DNA from: Candidatus Daviesbacteria bacterium
GTDB taxonomy: Bacteria; Patescibacteriota; Microgenomatia; Daviesbacterales; UBA10151
DNA length: 64,000 nucleotides
Reading direction: 5' to 3'
NCBI GenBank assembly: GCA_030699125.1
Contig: JAUYKM010000018.1
Span: 34,884-98,883 of the forward strand
Shown: one piece after another, positions 3,468 through 51,281 of the stretch
How the letters are laid out: each line of letters begins with the position of its first letter
Position numbering within the stretch: position 1 is the first letter of the stretch
The notes under the pieces: generated by a model
What the model was told of the DNA's origin: nothing
Databases searched by the model: none
Seen by the model: the letters and a program-made list of their open reading frames with translations, nothing else
Translations under genes and position numbers: made by a program

Positions 3468-4094
3468 TCATTGAATAAATCTAATGGTGGAAATAATTTG
3501 ATTTTGTATCTCACTAAATGAAGTTTTCTTAAACGTAGATACAATGTATACAAATCCTCCATAGTCAGTATCTAAATGTAAATTTGGCCATTGTGGTACT
3601 AAACCTGCTCCCTTTGGATAATCTTCTGGTCTAACCAGATATTCTTTCCATTTGTAATCATTTATTATTCTTTCCTGTGGAGTAAGATTAAGATACATAT
3701 AGTATCTGTCTTGCTCTGCATTTCCAATGGGGATTTCTTCCATACGCATACTCAATACATTGTCGCCATATCTATCAATCATTATTGTCAAAAATTTTCT
3801 TGTTTGCATGGTTATAGGTAATTCTTCAAAACTTAAATCTGCAGGATATTTAAATTGAATACGATATTCTTTATTTGTATATGTTTTCCAATTTGCTGTT
3901 TCCACAGCACCAGTCGGTGCAGGACTCGCATCTGAAGTTGTCGAAGGTTGGATAGTTTGTTGAGGAGTAGGTTTATTTAAATTAATTTTTCCAGCATAAA
4001 TTAAATATCCACCAATTGCTGCAGCTATTAGTAAAACTATTAATATCGGCGCTAATCCTTTTTGTTTCACTAGCTTTAGTATACTACTTTTCAA
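3468..4094 (-). CDS. Membrane-anchored secreted protein, paralog 1 of the NWKTYT..FKYP family. N-terminal TM helix, P/S/T-rich linker and a conserved globular domain.
   Basis: 208 aa with an N-terminal helix LAPILIVLLIAAAIGGYLIY and motif ANWKTYTNKEYRIQFKYP. The C-terminus STIRFIQ matches the paralog at 41787..42392 (NTFKFIN). Overlaps the upstream protease gene by 11 nt. Confidence 0.75.
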   Translation of the reverse strand: MKSSILKLVKQKGLAPILIVLLIAAAIGGYLIYAGKINLNKPTPQQTIQPSTTSDASPAPTGAVETANWKTYTNKEYRIQFKYPADLSFEELPITMQTRKFLTIMIDRYGDNVLSMRMEEIPIGNAEQDRYYMYLNLTPQERIINDYKWKEYLVRPEDYPKGAGLVPQWPNLHLDTDYGGFVYIVSTFKKTSFSEIQNQIISTIRFIQ

Positions 4095-4494
4095 TTATTC
4101 TAATATCTAAATTCCATTTATATCTTTCAAAAGTAATTCTGGCTTTAGAAAAGAAATCCTCTTGTCCTAGTACACATTTAAAGGGTGTGTTTAGCTGATT
4201 ACTAAATTGCACCGGAATATTTAATTGATGTCCTCCTACTTCTATTGTGATTTTTGAAGAATAAGATAAAAATGGAGAACCGTTGATGCCAAATGACGTC
4301 TGAGGCTTTATATTTCCTAGATCGATCCCAAGTATATCAGCTATTTCCATAGTTAGGTATGAATAATCAGCTCCTGAGTCCACCAAACAGAGAATAGGTA
4401 AAGTTGATTTTTCCTGATGAATAAATTTGGCAGGAATCAGTGGTCTTTTTGTATCTTTAGGAATTCCCGGAAGTGTGGTGTATGGAAAATTCAT
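4084..4494 (-). CDS. Retropepsin-like (clan AA) aspartic protease, copy 1
   Basis: 136 aa. Active-site motif LVDSGADYSYL (D-S-G-A), no signal peptide. Its start overlaps the stop of the upstream small gene (TAATG). Confidence 0.8.
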   Translation of the reverse strand: MNFPYTTLPGIPKDTKRPLIPAKFIHQEKSTLPILCLVDSGADYSYLTMEIADILGIDLGNIKPQTSFGINGSPFLSYSSKITIEVGGHQLNIPVQFSNQLNTPFKCVLGQEDFFSKARITFERYKWNLDIRIIEK

Positions 4495-4691
4495 TAGCCA
4501 CTTGTAACATAACCACGATAATTTTTGGCAGCAGGAATTAACACAACATCCTCTCTTTTCTGTTTTTCAACTTTATCACTAACTTCTTTCAGTGTCTCTC
4601 CTGAGGCCACTACTCTTTTATAATCAGCAGTCATAGCCACCCAACCTGACGAAAAATTTTTAAGTAATTTAGATAGATTTACCGTTTGCAT
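4494..4691 (-). CDS. Small conserved protein (65 aa) paired with the retropepsin-like protease, resembling a DUF5678-type small protein.
   Basis: Motif GWVAM..VVASGETLKEV...VLIP is shared with the 73-aa paralog at 42973..43194 (GKWVAM..VVAHARTLHEV..VTQIP). Translationally coupled to the protease. Confidence 0.65.
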   Translation of the reverse strand: MQTVNLSKLLKNFSSGWVAMTADYKRVVASGETLKEVSDKVEKQKREDVVLIPAAKNYRGYVTSG

Positions 4692-6295: not shown

Positions 6296-6505
6296 TTAGA
6301 TTACAGAAAATTCTACCGGTAGAGGGGTTCTTCTTTTAGGTAACTCTATGTATAGTTTCTCAAACCCTATCACCTTACCTCTTTTATCTTTACTCACGAT
6401 AGTCCCATCTCCAATCTCTTCACTAACCACTTCTTTCTTGGGATCATCAAACCAAACACTTAAAGTCTGGCCCTTTTTATCATAAAACATTTTGATCTTT
6501 GACAT
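6296..6505 (-). CDS. DUF2283-type small protein (antitoxin-like partner)
   Basis: 69 aa, KMFYDKKGQTLSVWFDD...GKVIGFEKL. Overlaps the upstream DUF4258-like gene by 26 nt. Confidence 0.65.
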   Translation of the reverse strand: MSKIKMFYDKKGQTLSVWFDDPKKEVVSEEIGDGTIVSKDKRGKVIGFEKLYIELPKRRTPLPVEFSVI

Positions 6506-6812
6506 ACACTACTTCTCCCTCCTTAATTCTATCAGTTAAATAAGCTGTAATCATATAGCCATTTTTTTTATCTATATGATCTGTTACTGCACAAACATTA
6601 AGCTTACCAATTTTCTTATAATACAAATGTACTCTTAAATCCTTTATGCTTCTTCTAACTTCATCAGGATCTTTTAAGGATTCTTTAACTTTAGCTTCAT
6701 ATTTGGCAATACTTGGATGTTTAATTGTTACAATCATTTGCCAATATGCTTTAGTAGTTCTGATAATAATACCAAGTGGTGTTTTAATCTTAAAGTATTC
6801 ATCAGAAACCAC
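6480..6812 (-). CDS. DUF4258-type protein (RelE-fold toxin-like partner)
   Basis: 110 aa. Paired with and overlapping a DUF2283-like gene, the classic DUF4258/DUF2283 arrangement. Confidence 0.55.
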   Translation of the reverse strand: MVSDEYFKIKTPLGIIIRTTKAYWQMIVTIKHPSIAKYEAKVKESLKDPDEVRRSIKDLRVHLYYKKIGKLNVCAVTDHIDKKNGYMITAYLTDRIKEGEVVYVKDQNVL

Positions 6813-29110: not shown

Positions 29111-30889
29111 TTATGATTTCAAAATACTCAAAAATGCCTCCTGGGGGATTTCGACTCTACCAATCATTTTCATCTTTTTCTTTCCCTTTTTCTGCTTCTC
29201 AAGCAGCTTATCTTTTCTGGTTCTATCCCCTCCATATAGCTTGGCTGTGACATCTTTTCTAAATGGTGAGATGGTTTCTCTGGCAATAATATTTCCTCCA
29301 ATTACTGCCTGAATTGCTATGGCAAAATTTTGCCTGGGCAACACTTCCTTTAATTTTTCCACCATTTTTCTTCCAAAACTTTCCGCCTTTTCCCGAACCA
29401 CAATGGTGGAAAGTGCATCCACTTTTTCTCCTGCCACCAAAATATCTAACCTTACTGCTTCCACCTCTCTATATTCTAAAAATTCCCAATCTAGCGAGGC
29501 GAAACCAGAGGAAACTGATTTTAGCCGATCATAAAAATTGGTAATCATCTCAGAAAGCGGCATTTCATACTTAAGTTCCACTTGAGTACCAAAATATTGA
29601 GTATTGATAAACTTCCCCCGTCTTTCTGTTACCAAATCCATTACATTACCAATAAAATTTTGTGGAATAAAAATTTTTAAAGATACCCAGGGTTCCTTAA
29701 CATTTTTCATAAGTGAGGGGTCAATTTCAGAAGGATTATGAATTAGCTTTCCCTCAATCTCATATTCCACTGAAGGGATAGTGGCAATCAAATCTACTCC
29801 CGCCTCAGTTGATAATCTTTCTTGGACAACCTCTGCATGCAGAAGACCCAAAAATCCACACCTAAAACCATTTCCTAAAGCCTGAGATGATTCCAACTCA
29901 TAAGATAAAGAGGGATCATTTAGTCTAAATTTTTCCAAAGCCTCTTTGGCTTCAATGTATGAATCCTGCTCGATGGGAAAAAGTCCTACATAAACCATAG
30001 GTTTTACCTCTTTGTACCCTGGAAGAGGTTCAACATCCAACTCAGTAGAAATAGTATCTCCTACTCTCACCTTATCCGAATCTTTTATACCAGTAGCAAT
30101 ATAGCCAATATCTCCTGCATAAAGTCCGTCATTTAAAGTTAGCTCCGGCGCAAAAAAACCAGTTTCTAAGATATGTCCCTCAGCCTTATTTTGCAGAAAA
30201 CAAATTTTTGCGTTAACTGGTGGCGTTTGACCTTCCATAATTCTCACCTGGGCAATCACTCCCTTAAAAGGATCGAAAAAACTGTCAAAGATTAATGCTT
30301 TCAATGGACACCCTTGGGGTGTATTTGTATTGACACCTGCGGATTTTGGGGCTGGGATACGCTCAATAATGGCTTTCAATAATTCCTCCACACCTTTTCC
30401 TGTTTTTCCAGATACAAGTAAAATCTCATCTTTATTAAACCCAAATGTTTCTATTAGTTGTTTTTTTGTGGATTCAATATCTGCATTTGGTAGATCAATT
30501 TTATTAATAACAGGAATTAAAGTCAGATTCTGCTCCAGTGCAGCCAGACCATGAGCTAAAGTCTGAGCCTGAATCCCCTGAGTCGCATCTACCAAAAGTG
30601 TGGCTCCCTCAACTGCTGCCAAAGCCCGAGATACTTCATACGAAAAATCCACATGGCCCGGGGTATCAATTAAGTTTAGGGTGTAGGGTATAGCGTCTAG
30701 GGTATAGCTAAGGCGCACTGGCGCGAGCTTAATGGTAATTCCCCGCTCCCGCTCCAATGCTAGAGAGTCCAGAAGCTGCGGCTTCAGTTTTTCCTTGGGG
30801 ATAGTGCCGGTAATTTCCAGCAGTCTGTCTGCCAGAGTGGATTTACCGTGATCAATGTGGGCAATGATGGAAAAATTGCGAATGTTCAT
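29111..30889 (-). CDS. lepA: Elongation factor 4 (LepA)
   Basis: 592 aa with NFSIIAHIDHGKSTLADR and DTPGHVDF. Contains a small in-frame tandem duplication YTLDAIP/YTLNLID (DNA tagggtatagc x2). Confidence 0.95.
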   Translation of the reverse strand: MNIRNFSIIAHIDHGKSTLADRLLEITGTIPKEKLKPQLLDSLALERERGITIKLAPVRLSYTLDAIPYTLNLIDTPGHVDFSYEVSRALAAVEGATLLVDATQGIQAQTLAHGLAALEQNLTLIPVINKIDLPNADIESTKKQLIETFGFNKDEILLVSGKTGKGVEELLKAIIERIPAPKSAGVNTNTPQGCPLKALIFDSFFDPFKGVIAQVRIMEGQTPPVNAKICFLQNKAEGHILETGFFAPELTLNDGLYAGDIGYIATGIKDSDKVRVGDTISTELDVEPLPGYKEVKPMVYVGLFPIEQDSYIEAKEALEKFRLNDPSLSYELESSQALGNGFRCGFLGLLHAEVVQERLSTEAGVDLIATIPSVEYEIEGKLIHNPSEIDPSLMKNVKEPWVSLKIFIPQNFIGNVMDLVTERRGKFINTQYFGTQVELKYEMPLSEMITNFYDRLKSVSSGFASLDWEFLEYREVEAVRLDILVAGEKVDALSTIVVREKAESFGRKMVEKLKEVLPRQNFAIAIQAVIGGNIIARETISPFRKDVTAKLYGGDRTRKDKLLEKQKKGKKKMKMIGRVEIPQEAFLSILKS

Positions 30890-41061: not shown

Positions 41062-41754
41062 ATGGAAAGATATCTGGGAATCTTATTAATAATAGGACTC
41101 ACCATTTTTGCCGGTTCTTTTTGGCAAAATCCCGTTATTCTGGGGGAATCCACAGGCCCTTCCCAAATTCTGCCAATTAGTCAGCCTGTTCTCACTCAAT
41201 CTGCCTTTAGTGAAAAATTGGAAGAAGATATAGAAATAATTCCTAAAAAAACAGTCTATGAGGATGACCCGGAGACTGAAGCAGGAATAGAAAAAATATT
41301 AGAAGAAGGCGAAGATGGTAAAAGGGTTAAAATTATCAAAATTACCTATTATAAAGATGGCGATGAATATGATAGACAAATTGTTTCTACTGAAACCACG
41401 CCAGCCAAAAATAAAATCATTTCAAGAGGCACTAAAATTATCTGGAAAACCTTAGCTACCGCTGATGGAGAAATTAGGTATTGGAAAAAATTACGGGTCT
41501 ATGCCACTCATTATGATTCCAGATGTCCAGGATGTAATGAATGGACAGCCATTGGTATGAGAGCCGGCAAAGGCGTTATTGCTGTTGATCCCAAAGTTAT
41601 ACCCTTAAGATCTAAAGTTTATATTCCGGAATACGGGATGGCCATAGCCGGAGATACTGGCGGAGCCATTAAAGGAAATATTATAGATTTAGGCTTTGAT
41701 GATGCCAGAACAGCCGGCTGGAGAGCAAAATTTGTAGATATTTATCTCTTATAG
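41062..41754 (+). CDS. G5 domain + 3D (MltA-like) domain cell-wall protein (YabE/RpfB-like)
   Basis: 230 aa. Signal/TM helix, a G5-like segment, and a 3D domain YATHYDSRCPGCNEWTAIGMRAGKGVIAVDPKVIP...AGDTGGAIKGNIID. Confidence 0.75.
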   Translation: MERYLGILLIIGLTIFAGSFWQNPVILGESTGPSQILPISQPVLTQSAFSEKLEEDIEIIPKKTVYEDDPETEAGIEKILEEGEDGKRVKIIKITYYKDGDEYDRQIVSTETTPAKNKIISRGTKIIWKTLATADGEIRYWKKLRVYATHYDSRCPGCNEWTAIGMRAGKGVIAVDPKVIPLRSKVYIPEYGMAIAGDTGGAIKGNIIDLGFDDARTAGWRAKFVDIYLL

Positions 41755-41786
41755 CATTATTACGAGGAGCGAAGCAACGTGGCAAT

Positions 41787-42392
41787 CTAATTTATAAATT
41801 TAAAAGTATTTAGAATCAATGCTCCACTCTCACCAATTACTGGTTCAAATGAAATTCTATAAACTTTATTATTGTGAATTAGAGTAAATACTCTATTAGA
41901 CTTTGGGCCAGCAACTACTCCCTTCAATGTTTGAATACCATCAATATACATATATTCAACCTTATTACCCTCATAATCTAACCCTATTTCTCCATCGAAA
42001 GACTTATAATCAGACATAAAGGACTCTATACTCTCTTTTTCTGTTTGCTCCATTGAAATTGTCATCTGTCCATCATCTACGAGTAGAGATACACTATCTG
42101 GATCTTCTAAAAAGATATTGTCAACACCATAACTTCCTCCTTCTTTAATCTTTCCATCAATTGGGTATTTAAATGAAATTCCTAATTTTGTACTTGTATA
42201 TGTTTTCCAATTAGCACTTCGAGTATCCTCAGTGTAAACAGTTTCATCCGGAGAAGGTTGCGGAGTTTGGGAAATAGCCGGACTAGGCGAGGGTTTTGAG
42301 ACAGTTGATCTTCCCAAATAATATGCTCCAAAGGCTACTACTGCTGTTATTAATATTCCGATTAAGAAAATCTGAATCTGACCCTTTTGCAT
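41787..42392 (-). CDS. Membrane-anchored secreted protein, paralog 2 of the NWKTYT..FKYP family
   Basis: 201 aa. N-terminal helix, P/S-rich linker, SANWKTYTSTKLGISFKYP, and a C-terminus NTFKFIN matching paralog 1. Confidence 0.75.
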   Translation of the reverse strand: MQKGQIQIFLIGILITAVVAFGAYYLGRSTVSKPSPSPAISQTPQPSPDETVYTEDTRSANWKTYTSTKLGISFKYPIDGKIKEGGSYGVDNIFLEDPDSVSLLVDDGQMTISMEQTEKESIESFMSDYKSFDGEIGLDYEGNKVEYMYIDGIQTLKGVVAGPKSNRVFTLIHNNKVYRISFEPVIGESGALILNTFKFIN

Positions 42393-42399
42393 AGCGTTT

Positions 42400-42558
42400 T
42401 TAACTTAATTTAAACTTTTTTTCGTAGCTTTTAATTAAACTGATTGATAAATCTTCATCAAAGATAGCCCTAGCTAAAATCCCTTTTATTTTGGTGTTAT
42501 TTCTTTTCCACTTTTTATCTGGTTTACAAATACCACAAGTAGATTTACTGATTATCAT
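42400..42558 (-). CDS. Candidate 52-aa CxxC micro-protein between the protease and paralog 2. Not in the ORF track.
   Basis: MIISKSTCGICKPDKKWKRNNTKIKGILARAIFDEDLSISLIKSYEKKFKLS, translated by hand and checked. Its stop lies 7 nt before the next start. No SD. Confidence 0.35.
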   Translation of the reverse strand: MIISKSTCGICKPDKKWKRNNTKIKGILARAIFDEDLSISLIKSYEKKFKLS

Positions 42559-42574
42559 ATTTAACTATTATACT

Positions 42575-42976
42575 CTAATTTGGTATTCTAATTGGCTCTA
42601 TCTCTACAGTCTGTTTCTGGTAACTCAATTTAACGTCAAAGTGATCAAAAAATCCTTGTTGGCCTAAGATTCCATGACCAAAATCGCTAATCTTTGCAAA
42701 AATTACATATGTTGCGTATGTGATCTTATCAATTTTTATATCTATTTCTCCCCAAAAACCCTCTATCTCATCGTTGCCAGCTCCAATAAAAGTAATTTTA
42801 TTTTTCTTCGAAAATTTTAGCCCTAGTTCTTTGGCAATTTCTAGACTAAAAATACAATGATCAGCTCCGGAATCAATTAACCCATGATATAGAATAAAGT
42901 AATTATCTGACTTAATTATAATTGGAATAATAGGTCTTCTGAGGTAAGGAGTGATCTCTTTATAAGGAAATGTCAT
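42575..42976 (-). CDS. Retropepsin-like (clan AA) aspartic protease, copy 2
   Basis: 133 aa with motif LIDSGADHCIF. The N-terminus MTFPY.. parallels copy 1 (MNFPY..). 4-nt overlap with the upstream small gene. Confidence 0.8.
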   Translation of the reverse strand: MTFPYKEITPYLRRPIIPIIIKSDNYFILYHGLIDSGADHCIFSLEIAKELGLKFSKKNKITFIGAGNDEIEGFWGEIDIKIDKITYATYVIFAKISDFGHGILGQQGFFDHFDVKLSYQKQTVEIEPIRIPN

Positions 42977-43194
42977 TCAGTATAAATAAATGGTCCTACT
43001 ATTGGAAGAACTTTCTTTGGTATTTGAGTAACTAAAGGCATTTCATATCCTTTTTGTTTTGCTTTTCGAAGCACCTCATGTAGCGTTCTAGCATGTGCTA
43101 CAACCTTAGGTTTAGTCTCATGATCAATCATAGCCACCCACTTACCCTTATAGTTTTTATTACCATAAATTTTGGTCATGTCTACTGCTGACAT
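42973..43194 (-). CDS. Small conserved protein (73 aa) paired with the retropepsin-like protease, copy 2
   Basis: GKWVAMIDHETKPKVVAHARTLHEVLRKAKQKGYEMPLVTQIP aligns with the 65-aa copy-1 protein. Confidence 0.65.
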   Translation of the reverse strand: MSAVDMTKIYGNKNYKGKWVAMIDHETKPKVVAHARTLHEVLRKAKQKGYEMPLVTQIPKKVLPIVGPFIYTE

Positions 43195-43268
43195 AGTAAC
43201 TTAATTTTACCATTTTTGGAGATCTAAAAACCATATGTAGATTAACAGCAAAATTTGTAGATATATAT

Positions 43269-44198
43269 TTACTCTGACCCTCTTTTTTGCTCTATACATT
43301 CTAATAAGTCCTTAGTTTGGGTCCATCCGCATCCCCCATCTTTCTGTCTTTCACATAAGGCATCTTTATAACATTCATACTCTTCCCTAAATTCACAGGT
43401 GGTAACAATATCTTTTTCTTCTTCATCTACACAAAGCTGATTACTACATCCTGCCACAAAACAACCTCCTATATTTTCCACCACTTTAACAGTTTGTAAA
43501 ATTTTCTCCCCCTCTTCACCTATAATTCTGAAAAGATACATTTTTTCACTGCTAGCAAGATAAATAAATTTTGGTGAGCCGGGCTGGTAAGTCACTATTC
43601 CATATTGTGCCAGCTGTCCGGAAATGGTGGCTTCCCCTTTTGGAGCAACATCATCTCTTCTGGCTGTATAATCTCCCCAGACAAAAGGATAATACCAATA
43701 ATTTTCATAGAATTGTTCTATGTCTAGTTTGTTGGGATTATTAAAAACCCAAAGAGTGAATGGATTGGTCTCAAAGTTATCTTCTTTTTCTAAAACCACC
43801 ACTGCTCCTAAATTGTCAGCTGGTGGATAGGCTACATATGCGGTAAAATTTTTTCTAAACTCCCCATTTCCTCTTTTATTGAACTCTTCTTCACTATCCT
43901 CTTTGACAACTAAATTCTTTTTGGAATATTCAAACTTAAAGCCAAGATCTTTATTCGTATATGTTTCTAAACTATCTTTTTGTTTATCAGGGGGTGGGAT
44001 AAAATTTGGTGGATTATTTTTGTAATTTAAATAAAAATATCCACTACCAAAAATGATTACTAAACTAATCAGCACAAGGATTATTGGGGCAGATCCTCTT
44101 TGTTTATAATTCGAGCGAAGCGAGAATTTCAAGCTTTGCTTATACTGAGCGTAGTCGAAGTACATAATATAATGATAGATTAGGTATTGCCAAAACAC
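43269..44198 (-). CDS. Membrane-anchored secreted protein, paralog 3 of the family, with a C-terminal cysteine-rich domain
   Basis: 309 aa. Helix APIILVLISLVIIFGSGYFYL, motif ETYTNKDLGFKFEYS, and a C-terminal CFVAGCSNQLCVDEEEKDIVTTCEFREEYECYKDALCERQKDGGCGW (9 Cys). The true start may be the internal Met at 44163-44165. Confidence 0.65.
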   Translation of the reverse strand: MFWQYLIYHYIMYFDYAQYKQSLKFSLRSNYKQRGSAPIILVLISLVIIFGSGYFYLNYKNNPPNFIPPPDKQKDSLETYTNKDLGFKFEYSKKNLVVKEDSEEEFNKRGNGEFRKNFTAYVAYPPADNLGAVVVLEKEDNFETNPFTLWVFNNPNKLDIEQFYENYWYYPFVWGDYTARRDDVAPKGEATISGQLAQYGIVTYQPGSPKFIYLASSEKMYLFRIIGEEGEKILQTVKVVENIGGCFVAGCSNQLCVDEEEKDIVTTCEFREEYECYKDALCERQKDGGCGWTQTKDLLECIEQKRGSE

Positions 44199-48717: not shown

Positions 48718-50886
48718 ATGATTCCTGTTGCTCTTAAACTTGCTAACTTCACCTCCTATGGTGAGGGTGTTTCTGAACTTAACTTTTCCAAATTTCATTT
48801 GGCTGCCATTTCCGGACTTAACGGAGCTGGAAAATCATCACTTCTGGATGCCATTACCTGGTGTGTCTGGGGCACCTCCCGTGCCGGTGATAATGCAGAT
48901 CAGTTAGTTAAACTGGGCTCTCAAAAGATGACGGTGGAATTTTCCTTCGAGCTGGATGGTCATATTTATACCATTAAAAGAGCTCGTTTATTAAAAGGTG
49001 GCGGCTCAACAGCCCTGGAACTTTGGTCTGGTTCCACAAATTCACCGCTGCACAACCTCACAGAGGGAACAATCAAAGCCACTCAACAAAAAATAATCAA
49101 CTTATTGCATTTAACCTTTGAGACTTTTACTAACTCCTCATTTTTAAGACAAAATCATGCAGACGAATTTACCACCAAAGGACCTACTGATAGAAAAAGG
49201 ATTTTATCAGATATTTTGGGATTGTCTCATTATGACACCCTTGAAGAGAGGGCAAAAGAAAAAGTTAAAGAATTGCATTCTAAATTAGCTCTTTTAGAGT
49301 ATCAGCTTTTAGAGATTGAGGCTGAAGTTTCACAAAAGGATGAAAGCCAAAATAAATTAAAGGAGGCGCAGGAGAAAATTTCTCAAGTCGAGCAAACTCT
49401 TAAGAAAATTGAGGAGGAACTAAAATCAATCAGAGAGACAAAAGAAAAGCTGATCTTGGCAAATGAGCAAAAATTAAAATTGGAGCAAAATTTGAGGGAA
49501 GATAAAATAGAACTTAATGAAATTTTAAGTCAGGGTCAAAAAAGATCTGCGAGAATTAAAAGATTGGAAGAAGATATTATATCTTTGCCTGAGATTGATA
49601 AAAAACTATCTGATTTAAGTAAGCTGAGAAAAAAGCAGGATGAGATAAATTTACAAAAACAAAAAGGGTTGGAACTGCAAAAACTTTTGGCAACTTCAAA
49701 TGGAGAGTTGGCTGTTAAAAAACAAGCTGAGGAATCAATCAGAAAACAGATCCTGGAGATAGAGAATGACATCAAAAGTTTAGAGGCAAAAGGCGCTAAA
49801 TGTCCTACCTGTGGACAGGAAATTGGCAAAGAGCATAAATTAGAAGTTAAAAAACAACTGATAAAAAAAGTTCAGGATTTTGAAAAAGAGCTGGGAAAAA
49901 TTGATCTTACCTCTGAGCAAAATGATATTAAAAAATACCAAGAACTTCTAAAAAATATTACCCCAATTGAGGAAGGAGATCTTAGTAAACAGATTGAACA
50001 ACTAGAGATGCTTCAAGTTAGAAAAGAGACTCTACTAAAAGCTAAAGCTGAGCTGGAAAGTGAAAAAAGAGTGGTAGCAGAACTTCGAGAATTTTATAAA
50101 AATAAGCTATCTATGATTAAAAAAATAGAATTAGGACTTGCTAAATTACCGGATGTTAAAGAAAAATTAGATTACCTGAATGTGGAAAGCATAGCAAAGG
50201 AGGAAACTTTAACAAAGCTTCGGGAAGAAGAGAAAGAGGCACGAAATATTTTTGGACAAGTTAAAGAATTAATGAGTAGAACGCAACAGTTGGAAAAATT
50301 ACAAAAAATAAAGTTGGAGGAAAAGAATATTTTGGAAAAGGAGAAGGCCAACTTTGAGGAGCTTGCCTTAGCGTTTGGTAAAAAAGGGATACAGGCTATG
50401 ATTATAGAAACTGCCATTCCGGAGATTGAGGAAGAAGCAAATAAACTGCTCGAAAGATTAACGGAGGGTAGAATGAAAGTTAGGTTTGAAACCCAAAGGG
50501 AAACTAAGACTAAAATGGAAAGTGGTGAAAAGGGCATTATAGAAACCCTAGATATTATTATTTCCGATGAGATGGGGGAAAGAGAATATGAGCTATATTC
50601 GGGAGGGGAGGCTTTCAGGGTAAATTTCGCCATCAGAATTGCCTTGTCAAAACTCTTAACCAGAAGGGTAGGAGCCAGATTACAGTTTTTAGTCATAGAT
50701 GAGGGTTTTGGTACACAAGATATAGAAGGAAGGACAAAAATTGTAGAAGTTCTAGATACTATCAAAAATGATTTTGAGAAAATCTTAGTCATTACTCATT
50801 TGGAACAGTTAAAGGAGGAGTTTCCAGTACGGATTGAGGTCATCAAAGGAAGTTCCGGCTCCACCTTTGAAGTAGTTGGACTTTAA
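48718..50886 (+). CDS. sbcC: Nuclease SbcCD subunit C (Rad50-like, short coiled coil)
   Basis: 722 aa. Walker A GLNGAGKSSLLDA, zinc hook CPTCGQ, signature LSGGEAFRVNFAIRIAL, and Walker B LVIDEGFG. Confidence 0.85.
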   Translation: MIPVALKLANFTSYGEGVSELNFSKFHLAAISGLNGAGKSSLLDAITWCVWGTSRAGDNADQLVKLGSQKMTVEFSFELDGHIYTIKRARLLKGGGSTALELWSGSTNSPLHNLTEGTIKATQQKIINLLHLTFETFTNSSFLRQNHADEFTTKGPTDRKRILSDILGLSHYDTLEERAKEKVKELHSKLALLEYQLLEIEAEVSQKDESQNKLKEAQEKISQVEQTLKKIEEELKSIRETKEKLILANEQKLKLEQNLREDKIELNEILSQGQKRSARIKRLEEDIISLPEIDKKLSDLSKLRKKQDEINLQKQKGLELQKLLATSNGELAVKKQAEESIRKQILEIENDIKSLEAKGAKCPTCGQEIGKEHKLEVKKQLIKKVQDFEKELGKIDLTSEQNDIKKYQELLKNITPIEEGDLSKQIEQLEMLQVRKETLLKAKAELESEKRVVAELREFYKNKLSMIKKIELGLAKLPDVKEKLDYLNVESIAKEETLTKLREEEKEARNIFGQVKELMSRTQQLEKLQKIKLEEKNILEKEKANFEELALAFGKKGIQAMIIETAIPEIEEEANKLLERLTEGRMKVRFETQRETKTKMESGEKGIIETLDIIISDEMGEREYELYSGGEAFRVNFAIRIALSKLLTRRVGARLQFLVIDEGFGTQDIEGRTKIVEVLDTIKNDFEKILVITHLEQLKEEFPVRIEVIKGSSGSTFEVVGL

Positions 50887-50900
50887 GCTACAATTATTAC

Positions 50901-51281
50901 ATGATCAAATTTCTGCCAAAATTGTTGCTGCCGCTAATTTTTTGGGGCAGTTTTATTTATGTAGTCTTACAAATTCCCTATCCTGAGTCTTTTTCTCAAG
51001 CCAGCCCTCAGCAACTTTTATATTTTTTTGTCAGTTTATTTTTTGCCATCACTTTGACTTTAAATATTTTTTTAAATTTTATTCTTTTGTCAGCATCAGT
51101 TGCTATTGGTATAATTCTTCTTCTTATTTTAAGGGCAATGGAATTTTTAAATATTGTCACCACCATTATGGTATTGATTGCAGTAGGTTTGCTTTTTTCC
51201 TATTTTGGGAAAATCAAAGGTAAAAAATTGACTTTAAATTCAAAAATCCCTAAACTGACACATCTAAGGAGAAGCAGATGA
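50901..51281 (+). CDS. Small multi-pass membrane protein of unknown function
   Basis: 126 aa, three predicted TM helices. 4-nt overlap with metG. Confidence 0.45.
   Translation: MIKFLPKLLLPLIFWGSFIYVVLQIPYPESFSQASPQQLLYFFVSLFFAITLTLNIFLNFILLSASVAIGIILLLILRAMEFLNIVTTIMVLIAVGLLFSYFGKIKGKKLTLNSKIPKLTHLRRSR

What the first reader, a model, noticed from the sequence alone, without database searches (positions are those of the whole stretch)
41787..44198. Module copy 2: expanded cassette with a Cys-rich third paralog and a CxxC micro-ORF, inserted between plus-strand genes
A minus-strand island sits between the plus-strand G5+3D gene and the SurA-like gene. It carries, in order:
- paralog 3 (309 aa, same ETYTNKDLGFKFEYS post-anchor motif, plus a 9-Cys C-terminal domain);
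- the 73-aa small protein;
- the retropepsin-like protease (IDSGADHCIF), with a 4-nt overlap;
- a 52-aa CxxC micro-ORF whose stop is 7 nt from the next start;
- paralog 2, whose C-terminus NTFKFIN mirrors copy 1's STIRFIQ.

Finding the cassette in an accessory-looking insertion as well as in a core operon argues that it is a mobile or duplicating functional unit, with the secreted protein diversifying (three paralogs in 64 kb).
Basis: seen in the sequence. Interest (0 to 1): 0.75.

Follow-up and report, generated by a model that had tools for sequence, protein, structure and literature searches.

The report
Mobile protease gene-pair cassette in Daviesbacteria
A 1.5-kb piece of foreign DNA, built around a widespread and uncharacterised gene pair (a small DUF5678 protein plus a retrovirus-type aspartic protease) that hops between genomes much as toxin-antitoxin modules do, has been spliced in next to a resident cell-envelope gene of a candidate-phyla-radiation bacterium.

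Summary
The five ORFs are real, but the "island" is two things. Paralog 3 (8 Cys, not 9) is a resident gene: its orthologs sit between the SurA-like and G5+3D genes in relatives. Only 1,523 bp (41746-43268: DUF5678, protease, micro-ORF, paralog 2) are inserted. A 22-nt repeat that duplicates the 3D gene's last codons brackets them, and deleting them recreates the empty site of a relative that is 88% identical.

The conserved core is the DUF5678-protease pair. In 91 of 98 cases across CPR phyla, Omnitrophota, Chloroflexota, Acidobacteriota and an archaeon, DUF5678 lies directly upstream. The pair has its own promoter, an invariant DSG catalytic motif, dN/dS near 0.1 and ever-changing neighbours, often beside VapBC, HicAB or BrnT modules.

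Flanking repeats are about 17-fold enriched around pairs. They duplicate gene 3' ends (once a tRNA) and look like donor and recipient alleles, which indicates insertion-duplication transfer.

The 52-aa micro-ORF is a genuine gene (dN/dS 0.15) but confined to a small subclade. The anchored PsbP-fold proteins are old, fast-evolving relatives that join the pair only in some Daviesbacteria.

Best reading: a toxin-antitoxin-like selfish module. The mechanism is inferred, not shown.

The parts
43269..44198 (-). Paralog 3. This is a resident, N-terminally anchored PsbP/Mog1-fold envelope protein and is NOT part of the insertion. The likely start is the TTG at 44132 (287 aa).
43272..43481 (-). Eight-cysteine C-terminal tail of paralog 3 (Cys at residues 246, 251, 256, 268, 276, 282, 290 and 301 of the 309-aa ORF).
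   Evidence: TIGR04289 eight-cysteine-cluster domain: E 1.3e-7, 32 bits, below the cut-off of 50. PF27854 is flagged weak on orthologs. All 8 Cys are conserved in 10 tail-bearing orthologs, and many ~210-aa orthologs lack the tail. Count.
43247..43277 (+). Displaced native 3' end of the G5+3D gene. It is the right copy of the flanking repeat (22-nt repeat at 43247-43268), still reads AKFVDIYLL-stop, and overlaps the paralog-3 stop as the live gene does in L008.
   Evidence: (18 nt exact; 0.02 expected by chance).
43204..43212 (-). Extended -10 promoter box (TGGTAAAAT), 9 nt upstream of the DUF5678 ATG. This gives a leaderless-type transcript.
   Evidence: The same box at the same spacing precedes DUF5678 in most relatives. 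Nucleotide homology to L104 and L004 starts at 43217.
42973..43194 (-). DUF5678 small protein (73 aa), the upstream partner in the pair.
42575..42976 (-). Retropepsin-like aspartic protease (133 aa, DSGA motif, no signal peptide by inspection). It overlaps DUF5678 by 4 nt.
   Evidence: PF13650: 26.6 bits against a cut-off of 24.3. The profile hits FIV protease (E 2.7e-4) and Ddi1. D[ST]G[AS] is kept in 83 of 83 homologs. dN/dS 0.09-0.10.
42567..42572 (-). TATAAT box 8 nt upstream of the micro-ORF ATG, conserved in L101 and L103.
42400..42558 (-). micro52, a genuine 52-aa CxxC, basic protein gene restricted to a small Daviesbacteria subclade. It appears translationally coupled to the anchored protein that follows.
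   Evidence: Five homologs at 74-83% identity. It is more conserved than the flanking protease (47-64%) and DUF5678 (50-59%). dN/dS 0.15 at dS 0.6-1.06, an excess of third-position changes, and all other frames closed. No further homolog in about 100 loci.
41787..42392 (-). Paralog 2, an anchored PsbP-like protein (201 aa) that arrived with the cassette.
   Evidence: hhalign to the paralog-3 family: 95.7%, E 9e-9, full length. An ortholog-like protein directly follows the pair in L028.
41724..41754 (+). Live 3' end of the G5+3D gene (AKFVDIYLL-stop). It is the left copy of the flanking repeat (22-nt repeat at 41724-41745). Its last codons differ only synonymously from the displaced copy.
41746..43268 (-). 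The inserted 1,523-bp cassette, by one of the equivalent boundary conventions. GC is 32.3% against 37.4% for the window.
   Evidence: Deleting it gives a contiguous 88%-identity alignment to L008 across the junction. GC.
3468..4691 (-). Copy 1: DUF5678 (4494-4691), protease (4084-4494) and an anchored protein (3468-4094), inside the TsaC-RodZ-like-tm89-...-AlaRS gene string.
   Evidence: The whole locus is conserved in L093 (DUF5678 78%, protease 80%, AlaRS 67%). A 78%-identical copy-1-type pair sits elsewhere in L087, bracketed by a 38-nt repeat.

Best explanation
SHOWN
- The region is a resident envelope gene (paralog 3) plus a 1.5-kb acquired cassette.
- The cassette went in at the very 3' end of the convergent G5+3D gene. 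Two copies of that gene's last codons now flank it.
- The copy next to paralog 3 is the native tail. The copy on the live gene carries different synonymous codons.
- The cassette holds two promoter-bearing, leaderless-type units. Unit A is DUF5678 then a retropepsin-like protease. Unit B is micro52 then an anchored PsbP-fold protein.
- Unit A is the part conserved across phyla. It is a roughly 0.65-kb self-contained module found in many phyla, often in several divergent copies, at ever-changing loci and frequently beside known toxin-antitoxin pairs.
- Both unit A genes are under strong purifying selection, and the catalytic motif is invariant.

INFERRED (transfer)
- The flanking repeats are donor and recipient alleles of the same gene end.
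- So the cassette spreads between related genomes by Campbell-type insertion-duplication: a single crossover between a circularised donor fragment [gene end + cassette] and the homologous gene end of the recipient.

INFERRED (function)
- Unit A works like a type II toxin-antitoxin or addiction module.
- The cytoplasmic protease, active as a homodimer like other retropepsins, is the harmful or effector partner.
- The co-translated DUF5678 protein binds and restrains it, perhaps through its low-confidence hydrophobic C-terminal tail.
- Unit B is lineage-specific cargo: a fast-evolving surface protein with a small coupled leader protein.

CONFIDENCE BY LAYER
- Anatomy and insertion: about 0.9.
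- Allele-type insertion-duplication transfer: about 0.6.
- Toxin-antitoxin-like function: about 0.4.
For: Native status of paralog 3 and the empty sites.

Flanking repeat:
- 18 nt exact and 21 of 22 overall, with 0.02 matches expected by chance.
- Both copies read AKFVDIYLL-stop, and the displaced one overlaps the paralog-3 stop as in L008.

Pair linkage:
- 91 of 98 proteases have DUF5678 directly upstream, across CPR phyla, Omnitrophota, Chloroflexota, Acidobacteriota, Planctomycetota and a Woesearchaeote.
- Three pairs lie within 4.5 kb in L026, and there are two in this window.

Mobility of near-identical pairs:
- The 80-85% identical orthologs sit at SbcC|MetRS, which is an empty site in this window.
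- Others sit at FabD|BrnT, at HrcA|, or in a RiPP cluster.
- Nucleotide homology is limited to 43217-42570.

Neighbourhood:
- 118 Pfam families among 147 neighbouring genes.
- VapBC next to the pair in L032 and L079 (PIN and RHH hits in L032), a PIN-like/RHH-like pair by sequence in L016, and HicAB, BrnT-CopG and AbiEii in other loci.

Insertion scars:
- Exact bracketing repeats of at least 16 nt occur in 6 of 62 real positions against 7 of 1,144 control positions (odds ratio 17, p 1.9e-5).
- They duplicate the last 20-135 nt of the adjacent gene or of tRNA-Pro.
- The second copy keeps the frame, the amino acids and the stop, and its differences are mostly synonymous.

Selection and anatomy:
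- dN/dS 0.08-0.14.
- D[ST]G[AS] in 83 of 83 proteases.
- A conserved extended -10 box 7-12 nt before the ATG.
- Six loci keep DUF5678 intact while the protease ORF is fragmentary.
Against: - No toxicity, binding or proteolysis has been shown.
- Neither protein matches a named toxin-antitoxin family in Pfam or NCBIfam.
- No paper links DUF5678 or retropepsins to antitoxins.
- Copy 1 is stably embedded in a housekeeping gene string in two species, which fits a domesticated cellular function as well.
- Most neighbours are housekeeping genes rather than defence or mobile-element islands.
- Only about 10-15% of pairs show flanking repeats.
- The mechanism that places a pair at a new locus for the first time is unexplained, and no recombinase lies inside the units.
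- The shared stretch in the window is only 18-22 nt, which is short for RecA-dependent crossover.
Confidence: 0.5

Rival explanations
1. First reader's model. This is a three-part functional cassette in which the protease matures or processes the adjacent membrane-anchored protein. The small protein acts as its chaperone or inhibitor, and the whole unit duplicates and diversifies.
For: - All three motif-bearing anchored proteins in the 64-kb window lie next to the two pairs.
- An anchored homolog directly follows the pair in L028, L019 and L093, and follows micro52 in L101 and L103, at different loci.
- The short start-stop distances suggest co-expression.
Against: - About 80 pairs in other lineages have no such neighbour.
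- 77-85% identical copy-2 orthologs lack it.
- Paralog 3 is adjacent only because of the insertion.
- The protease has no signal peptide or membrane segment (by inspection), whereas the PsbP-like domain lies outside the membrane.
- Paralog-2-like genes also occur without a pair (L094, L095).
Confidence: 0.15
2. An anti-phage defence or abortive-infection pair. The protease is an effector that is released on infection.
For: - The protease weakly matches the B components of two PADLOC candidate systems: PDC-M08B (E 3.3e-5) and PDC-M52B (E 2e-3).
- The pair has a patchy, mobile, multi-copy distribution.
- Small retropepsin proteins are reported near type III CRISPR loci in Sulfolobales (PMC3973734).
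Against: - DUF5678 matches no PADLOC model, and the scores for the protease are low.
- Neighbours are mostly housekeeping genes, not defence islands.
- There are no PHROG matches, and only 3 hits in 2.9 million viral contigs.
Confidence: 0.12
3. A domesticated housekeeping protease with a dedicated regulator or adaptor (for example in protein quality control). The variable locations would then reflect ordinary genome rearrangement.
For: - Copy 1 is conserved within the TsaC-RodZ-like-...-AlaRS string in two species.
- A recurrent site lies next to hrcA-grpE, the heat-shock regulon, in four genomes.
- Both genes are under strong purifying selection.
Against: - There are multiple divergent copies per genome, and the distribution across bacteria and archaea is patchy.
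- Insertion scars with donor-type alleles are present.
- Closely related genomes have empty sites.
- Some loci carry degraded proteases.
Confidence: 0.15

Closest known systems
Type II toxin-antitoxin modules (e.g. VapBC, HicAB, BrnTA)
   Same: - A two-gene operon with the small gene first.
- Overlapping, coupled translation and its own promoter.
- Sizes of 65-75 aa and about 135 aa.
- Multi-copy, patchy across phyla and at variable loci, often adjacent to bona fide toxin-antitoxin pairs.
- Occasional decay of the larger gene while the smaller stays intact.
   Different: - The putative toxin is a retropepsin-fold aspartic protease. To my knowledge, and in the literature searched, this is not an established toxin class.
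- The small partner has no RHH, AbrB, HTH or Phd fold and no fold match at all.
- No functional data exist.
Bacterial retropepsin-like proteases (Rickettsia APRc, Pseudomonas retropepsin-like osmotic-stress proteases, SpoIIGA, PerP) and eukaryotic Ddi1
   Same: A single-domain clan AA fold with the D(S/T)G motif. The best solved relatives by profile are FIV protease and Ddi1.
   Different: - The bacterial examples are membrane-embedded, secreted or periplasmic (the papers listed; SpoIIGA and PerP from general knowledge). This one has no export signal.
- This one is always paired with DUF5678, and it is mobile.
Genomic islands that integrate into the 3' end of tRNA or protein genes and carry a replacement gene end (attL/attR repeats)
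   Same: - Direct repeats that duplicate the target's 3' end, including one tRNA-Pro case.
- The second copy preserves the coding sequence, with allele-like differences.
   Different: - The units are only 0.65-1.5 kb and encode no integrase.
- The repeat sequence and length (18 to about 135 nt) differ at every locus. This fits homologous insertion-duplication better than site-specific recombination.
PsbP/Mog1-fold envelope proteins (cyanobacterial PsbP, mycobacterial LpqN/Mtc28/Apa, DcrB, T6SS immunity proteins Tsi3/TplEi)
   Different: - Sequence matches to Pfam PsbP_2 are below the cut-off.
- This is a CPR-specific family with variable Cys-rich tails.
- Its function is unknown.

Membership tests
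Type II toxin-antitoxin system | Two adjacent, co-directional, small, co-translated genes with their own promoter | tested here: met
   A 4-nt overlap, genes of 73 and 133 aa, and a conserved extended -10 box.
Type II toxin-antitoxin system | The antitoxin has a recognisable DNA-binding or antitoxin fold, or matches a known antitoxin family | tested here: not met
Type II toxin-antitoxin system | The toxin arrests growth and is neutralised by direct binding of the antitoxin | not testable with these tools
   This needs expression and rescue experiments, or a complex structure.
Type II toxin-antitoxin system | Multi-copy, horizontally mobile, at variable loci | tested here: met
Clan AA retropepsin-like aspartic peptidase (Pfam Asp_protease_2) | D(T/S)G(A) catalytic motif in a single domain of about 100-140 aa | tested here: met
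   83 of 83 homologs. D35, S36 and G37 are invariant in A1.
Clan AA retropepsin-like aspartic peptidase (Pfam Asp_protease_2) | HMM score above the curated cut-off | tested here: met
   Copy 2 scores 26.6 bits against 24.3. Copy 1 is marginally below, at 23.7 against 24.3. The profile hits solved retropepsins and Ddi1 at E 3e-4 to 1e-3.
Clan AA retropepsin-like aspartic peptidase (Pfam Asp_protease_2) | Active as a homodimer with proteolytic activity | not testable with these tools
   No multimer modelling or assay is available.
DUF5678 (PF18929) | HMM score above the curated cut-off | tested here: met
   46.9 and 28.2 bits against 23.2.
Eight-cysteine-cluster domain (TIGR04289 / PF27854 Heavy_Cys_CGP) | Eight conserved cysteines in about 55 residues | tested here: met
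   8 Cys, conserved in 10 orthologs.
Eight-cysteine-cluster domain (TIGR04289 / PF27854 Heavy_Cys_CGP) | HMM score above the curated cut-off | tested here: not met
   32.2 bits against a cut-off of 50. The precomputed PF27854 hit is marked weak.
PsbP/Mog1-like fold proteins (Pfam PsbP_2) | PsbP-type alpha/beta sandwich fold | tested here: met
PsbP/Mog1-like fold proteins (Pfam PsbP_2) | HMM score above the curated cut-off | tested here: not met
   13-17 bits against 27 for all three proteins.
Integrase-borne genomic island at a gene 3' end | Direct repeats that duplicate the target's 3' end | tested here: met
   The window, L087, L067, L016 and L079 (tRNA-Pro).
Integrase-borne genomic island at a gene 3' end | A site-specific recombinase encoded within the element | tested here: not met
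   The units hold only the pair, with or without one or two small genes. The Xer-like gene in L016 lies outside or at the edge of the unit.

The most novel reading that the evidence does not exclude
The roughly 0.65-kb DUF5678-retropepsin unit is itself an autonomous mobile element. One of its two products, neither of which has a recognisable recombinase fold, would promote integration next to the 3' ends of genes and tRNAs, producing the locus-specific gene-end duplications. That would make it one of the smallest self-mobilising DNA elements and a new class of integration machinery.

A less extreme version is held with about 0.35-0.4 probability. It is a new toxin-antitoxin family whose toxin is a retropepsin-fold protease, and it spreads by insertion-duplication.
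Probability: 0.05. Interest if true: 0.9.

Novelty: new variant of a known kind. Interest (0 to 1): 0.6.

Why it matters
- DUF5678 and its obligate retropepsin-like partner form a widespread module with no published function. There are at least 300 clusters at 50% identity, across many phyla and an archaeon.
- If the protease is a toxin or effector held in check by DUF5678, that adds a new enzymatic class to toxin-antitoxin and addiction biology. It also gives a prokaryotic, minimal relative of retroviral proteases with a built-in protein regulator.
- The allele-like gene-end duplications are direct sequence evidence for how small accessory cassettes pass between uncultivated CPR genomes (insertion-duplication at gene ends).
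- This can be tested in existing metagenomes.
- The work also rescues a 52-aa gene that annotation-by-length filters would discard.

Tried and rejected
- **The whole minus-strand block is an island.** Rejected. Paralog 3 is syntenic in five relatives.
- **The 22-nt repeat is chance.** Rejected. 0.02 matches are expected, its position is exact at the block boundaries, and the empty site can be reconstructed.
- **It is a transposase-type target-site duplication that later decayed.** Rejected as the main model. Lengths vary from 18 to about 135 nt, and the second copies keep frame, amino acids and stop, with mostly synonymous differences.
- **The duplication is an assembly artefact.** Judged unlikely. 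The two copies differ by SNPs, and the window's structure recurs in a second assembly. A de Bruijn bubble would not create a repeat (inference).
- **micro52 is a spurious ORF.** Rejected. Its weak window hit at 29325-29402 lies off-frame inside lepA and is chance.
- **The two cassettes are recent duplicates, so compute dN/dS between them.** Not meaningful at 26-36% identity. Ortholog comparisons were used instead.
- **The pair comes from phage.** There are no PHROG hits, and only three IMG/VR contigs carry a relative.
- **DUF5678 fold identification.** This led nowhere in the PDB or BFVD. The AFDB library was unavailable.
- **Terminators or inverted repeats at the cassette ends.** None were found.
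- **Literature on DUF5678, retropepsin plus antitoxin, and PDC-M08.** Nothing relevant.
- **A donor-type locus with paralog 2 convergent on a 3D gene.** None could be found. The relevant contigs (L101, L103) end too early.
Full report
**1. What is there.**

The window comes from a Candidatus Daviesbacteria genome (CPR/Patescibacteria; source name).

All five minus-strand ORFs in the finding exist at the stated coordinates. The 4-nt overlap between the 73-aa and 133-aa genes is there, and so is the 7-nt gap between the 52-aa ORF and the 201-aa gene.

Family assignments:
- The 73-aa protein is DUF5678 (PF18929, E 2.5e-12).
- The 133-aa protein is a retropepsin-like aspartic protease (PF13650, above cut-off; motif DSGA).
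- Copy 1 (3468-4691) has the same two families.
- The protease profile finds FIV protease and Ddi1 among solved structures.
- The 309-aa ORF has 8 cysteines, not 9. They match the catalogued eight-cysteine-cluster domain below its trusted cut-off.
- The flanking plus-strand genes are G5+3D and SurA_N_3.

**2. The "island" is a native gene plus a 1.5-kb insertion.**

Paralog 3 belongs to a strongly conserved Daviesbacteria family. More than 300 homologs were found, roughly 20 of them with the Cys tail and many ~210-aa forms without it.

In five loci from three relatives the order is SurA-like <- | paralog 3 -> | <- G5+3D <- UvrD, with nothing in between. In L008 paralog 3 overlaps the 3D stop by 4 nt.

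In the window a 22-nt direct repeat (21 of 22; 18 exact, with 0.02 expected by chance) lies at 41724-41745 and at 43247-43268. It brackets exactly DUF5678 + protease + micro52 + paralog 2.
- The left copy is the live end of the 3D gene.
- The right copy abuts the paralog-3 stop and still reads AKFVDIYLL-stop.

Removing 41746-43268 gives an uninterrupted 88%-identity alignment to L008 across the junction. The insert has 32.3% GC against 37.4% for the window.

**3. What is conserved.**

A scan of one genome per species returned 80 loci. Counting all loci then held, including those, 91 of 98 protease ORFs have a DUF5678 ORF immediately upstream on the same strand. The loci span many CPR phyla, Omnitrophota, Chloroflexota, Acidobacteriota, Planctomycetota and a Woesearchaeote. 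Some hold two or three pairs.

Further properties of the pair:
- All 83 non-redundant full-length proteases keep D[ST]G[AS].
- DUF5678 has at least 300 cluster representatives, nearly all stand-alone proteins of 60-90 aa.
- Orthologs of the pair show dN/dS of 0.08-0.14.
- An extended -10 box ends 7-12 nt before the DUF5678 start in most of the fifteen upstream regions inspected, so the unit carries its own promoter and a near-leaderless transcript.

The neighbours are extremely varied, with 118 Pfam families among 147 flanking genes. Only hrcA/grpE recurs, and that is one inherited site in a subclade.

Known toxin-antitoxin genes are frequent close neighbours:
- BrnT/CopG, HicAB and AbiEii in several loci.
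- VapBC in L032 (PIN and RHH hits confirmed) and in L079. L016 carries a PIN-like/RHH-like pair identified by sequence only.
- L032 has a VapBC module and a pair at the very same paralog-3 | 3D junction.

**4. The pair moves.**

The closest relatives of the copy-2 pair (80-85% aa identity) sit between SbcC and a TM protein/MetRS (L004, L014, L104). L017 carries a 62%-identical pair at the same site. That site is empty in the window, at 50886-50901.

Nucleotide homology to those loci covers only 43217-42570. That runs from 23 nt upstream of the DUF5678 start to 5 nt past the protease stop.

Other orthologs sit at FabD|BrnT, next to hrcA, or inside a RiPP cluster.

Copy 1, by contrast, is conserved with its whole gene string in L093. 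Even so, a 78%-identical copy-1-type pair sits elsewhere in L087.

**5. Insertion scars.**

Exact direct repeats of at least 16 nt bracket 6 of 62 pairs, against 7 of 1,144 shifted control positions in the same loci (odds ratio 17, p 1.9e-5). The clearest cases:
- **L087:** the repeat is the last 38 nt, including the stop, of a Na+/H+ exchanger gene. The unit between the copies is just promoter + pair.
- **L067:** at least 135 nt of the upstream gene's end are duplicated.
- **L079:** the repeat is the 3' end of tRNA-Pro.
- **L016:** 23 nt are duplicated. **L002:** 26 nt.

In all four protein-coding cases the second copy keeps the frame, the amino acids and the stop. In L067, 15 of 135 positions differ, most of them synonymous, with three amino-acid changes in 44 codons.

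Copies that diverged under coding constraint are best read as two alleles of one gene end, donor and recipient. That points to Campbell-type insertion-duplication of a circularised fragment, or to an att-like surrogate gene end. It does not fit a transposase target duplication.

For the window this reading explains two things. It explains why the displaced tail next to paralog 3 keeps the native overlap geometry. It also explains why the live 3D gene carries different synonymous codons.

No recombinase lies inside any unit. How a pair first reaches a new locus remains unknown.

**6. The micro-ORF.**

The big protein database holds five homologs at 74-83% identity.

In three of the four contexts that could be read, micro52 lies 16 nt after the protease stop (the window, L101/L102 and L103). 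In those three it is preceded by a conserved TATAAT and followed within 0-7 nt by an N-terminally anchored protein. The fourth context, an ENA contig without retrievable DNA, has DUF5678 followed by micro52 with no protease gene called.

Evidence that it is a real gene:
- It is more conserved (72-83%) than the protease (47-64%) or DUF5678 (50-59%) beside it.
- dN/dS is 0.15 at dS 0.6-1.06.
- Differences concentrate at third codon positions, and all other frames are closed.

It is confined to a small subclade, with no hit in roughly 100 other loci. It has no family match, and its function is unknown. The geometry suggests a leader protein that is translationally coupled to the anchored protein (inference).

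**7. The anchored proteins.**

Homology among the three:
- Paralog 2 is a full-length distant homolog of the paralog-3 family (95.7%, E 9e-9).
- The copy-1 protein matches only over its N-terminal 70-120 residues.

These proteins evolve fast. Identity is 37-42% and dN/dS about 0.56-0.59, next to proteases at 80% identity.

An anchored homolog directly follows the pair in the window (twice), L028, L019 and L093, and follows micro52 in L101 and L103. It is absent from about 80 other pairs. The triad is therefore a lineage-specific association, not the core unit.

**8. How it most likely works.**

Shown:
- Unit A is a self-contained, mobile, multi-copy module under purifying selection.
- It encodes an apparently active cytoplasmic aspartic protease and an obligate small partner.

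Inferred (about 0.4):
- It behaves as a toxin-antitoxin-like or addiction module, in which DUF5678 restrains the protease.

Evidence against this reading:
- The confident DUF5678 model (pLDDT 89.7) has no antitoxin or DNA-binding fold, and no significant structural neighbour.
- Copy 1 looks domesticated.
- There are no functional data.

The rivals are a processing protease for the anchored protein, a defence system (weak PADLOC PDC-M08B/M52B hits) and a housekeeping protease with an adaptor. Each is given 0.12-0.15.

**9. Novelty.**

Both Pfam families are catalogued. I found no paper on DUF5678, on its linkage to retropepsin-like proteases, or on retropepsins as toxin-antitoxin components.

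I rate it a new variant of a known kind: a toxin-antitoxin-like mobile cassette with new components and an unusual, well-marked transfer signature.

Noticed in passing
window 6296-6812 (minus strand): A second small overlapping gene pair lies 1.6 kb from copy 1: a DUF2283 protein (69 aa, E 5e-10) and a 110-aa protein with no family hit. It looks like another toxin-antitoxin-type module, sitting between TsaC and a HIT-family gene.
   Followed up: partly
P0295 (search of protein representatives): A 763-aa protein with eight DUF5678-like stretches. Every other hit is a stand-alone protein of 60-130 aa, so a tandem-repeat form of this domain is odd.
   Followed up: no
L026 5738-10509: Three DUF5678-protease pairs lie within 4.5 kb of a Curtissbacteria contig, one of them on the opposite strand. 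Small genes that look toxin-antitoxin-like (DUF433-like, nucleotidyltransferase-like by sequence) are interleaved with them.
   Followed up: no
ENA contig of P0246 (no DNA retrievable): The gene order here is a 207-aa gene, then DUF5678, then only 85 nt, then a micro52 homolog. No protease gene is called. This could be a natural protease deletion that keeps both small genes.
   Followed up: no
window 44132-44060, 42392-42320, 4094-4010; A2 and A3 alignments: All the anchored proteins start with MQKG/KQKG followed by (S/F/L)AP-hydrophobic residues. This resembles the class III (prepilin-type) signal-peptide cleavage context, but without the +5 Glu. Whether they are processed by a prepilin peptidase was not tested.
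   Followed up: no
L093 6425-7252 and P0191: The copy-1 ortholog in L093 carries a different Cys-rich C-terminal tail (CGGIGANLPENQCPEGY.C...DAGGKC). The same tail appears on a paralog-3-family member, and L093 also has a Cys-rich insert after the anchor. Cys-rich modules appear to be shuffled among members of this family.
   Followed up: partly
L032 789-1435: A PIN_3 toxin / RHH antitoxin module occupies the same paralog-3 | 3D junction as the pair. This convergent-gene junction seems to be a hotspot for small accessory modules.
   Followed up: partly
L019, L020, L024, L028 (upstream of the pair): In four Daviesbacteria-like genomes the copy-2-type pair sits divergently next to hrcA-grpE(-dnaK). 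This may just be one inherited site, but a link to the heat-shock regulon was not examined.
   Followed up: no
window 29325-29402: micro52 gives a weak tblastn/HMM hit (E 7e-4 / 2e-3) inside lepA, in a different reading frame. It is judged a chance match of lysine-rich sequence.
   Followed up: yes
L016 7068-7937: The right copy of the 23-nt flanking repeat lies within the last codons of a Xer-like tyrosine recombinase gene (Phage_integrase, E 6e-26) that abuts the pair-containing block. Whether this recombinase is involved is unknown.
   Followed up: partly
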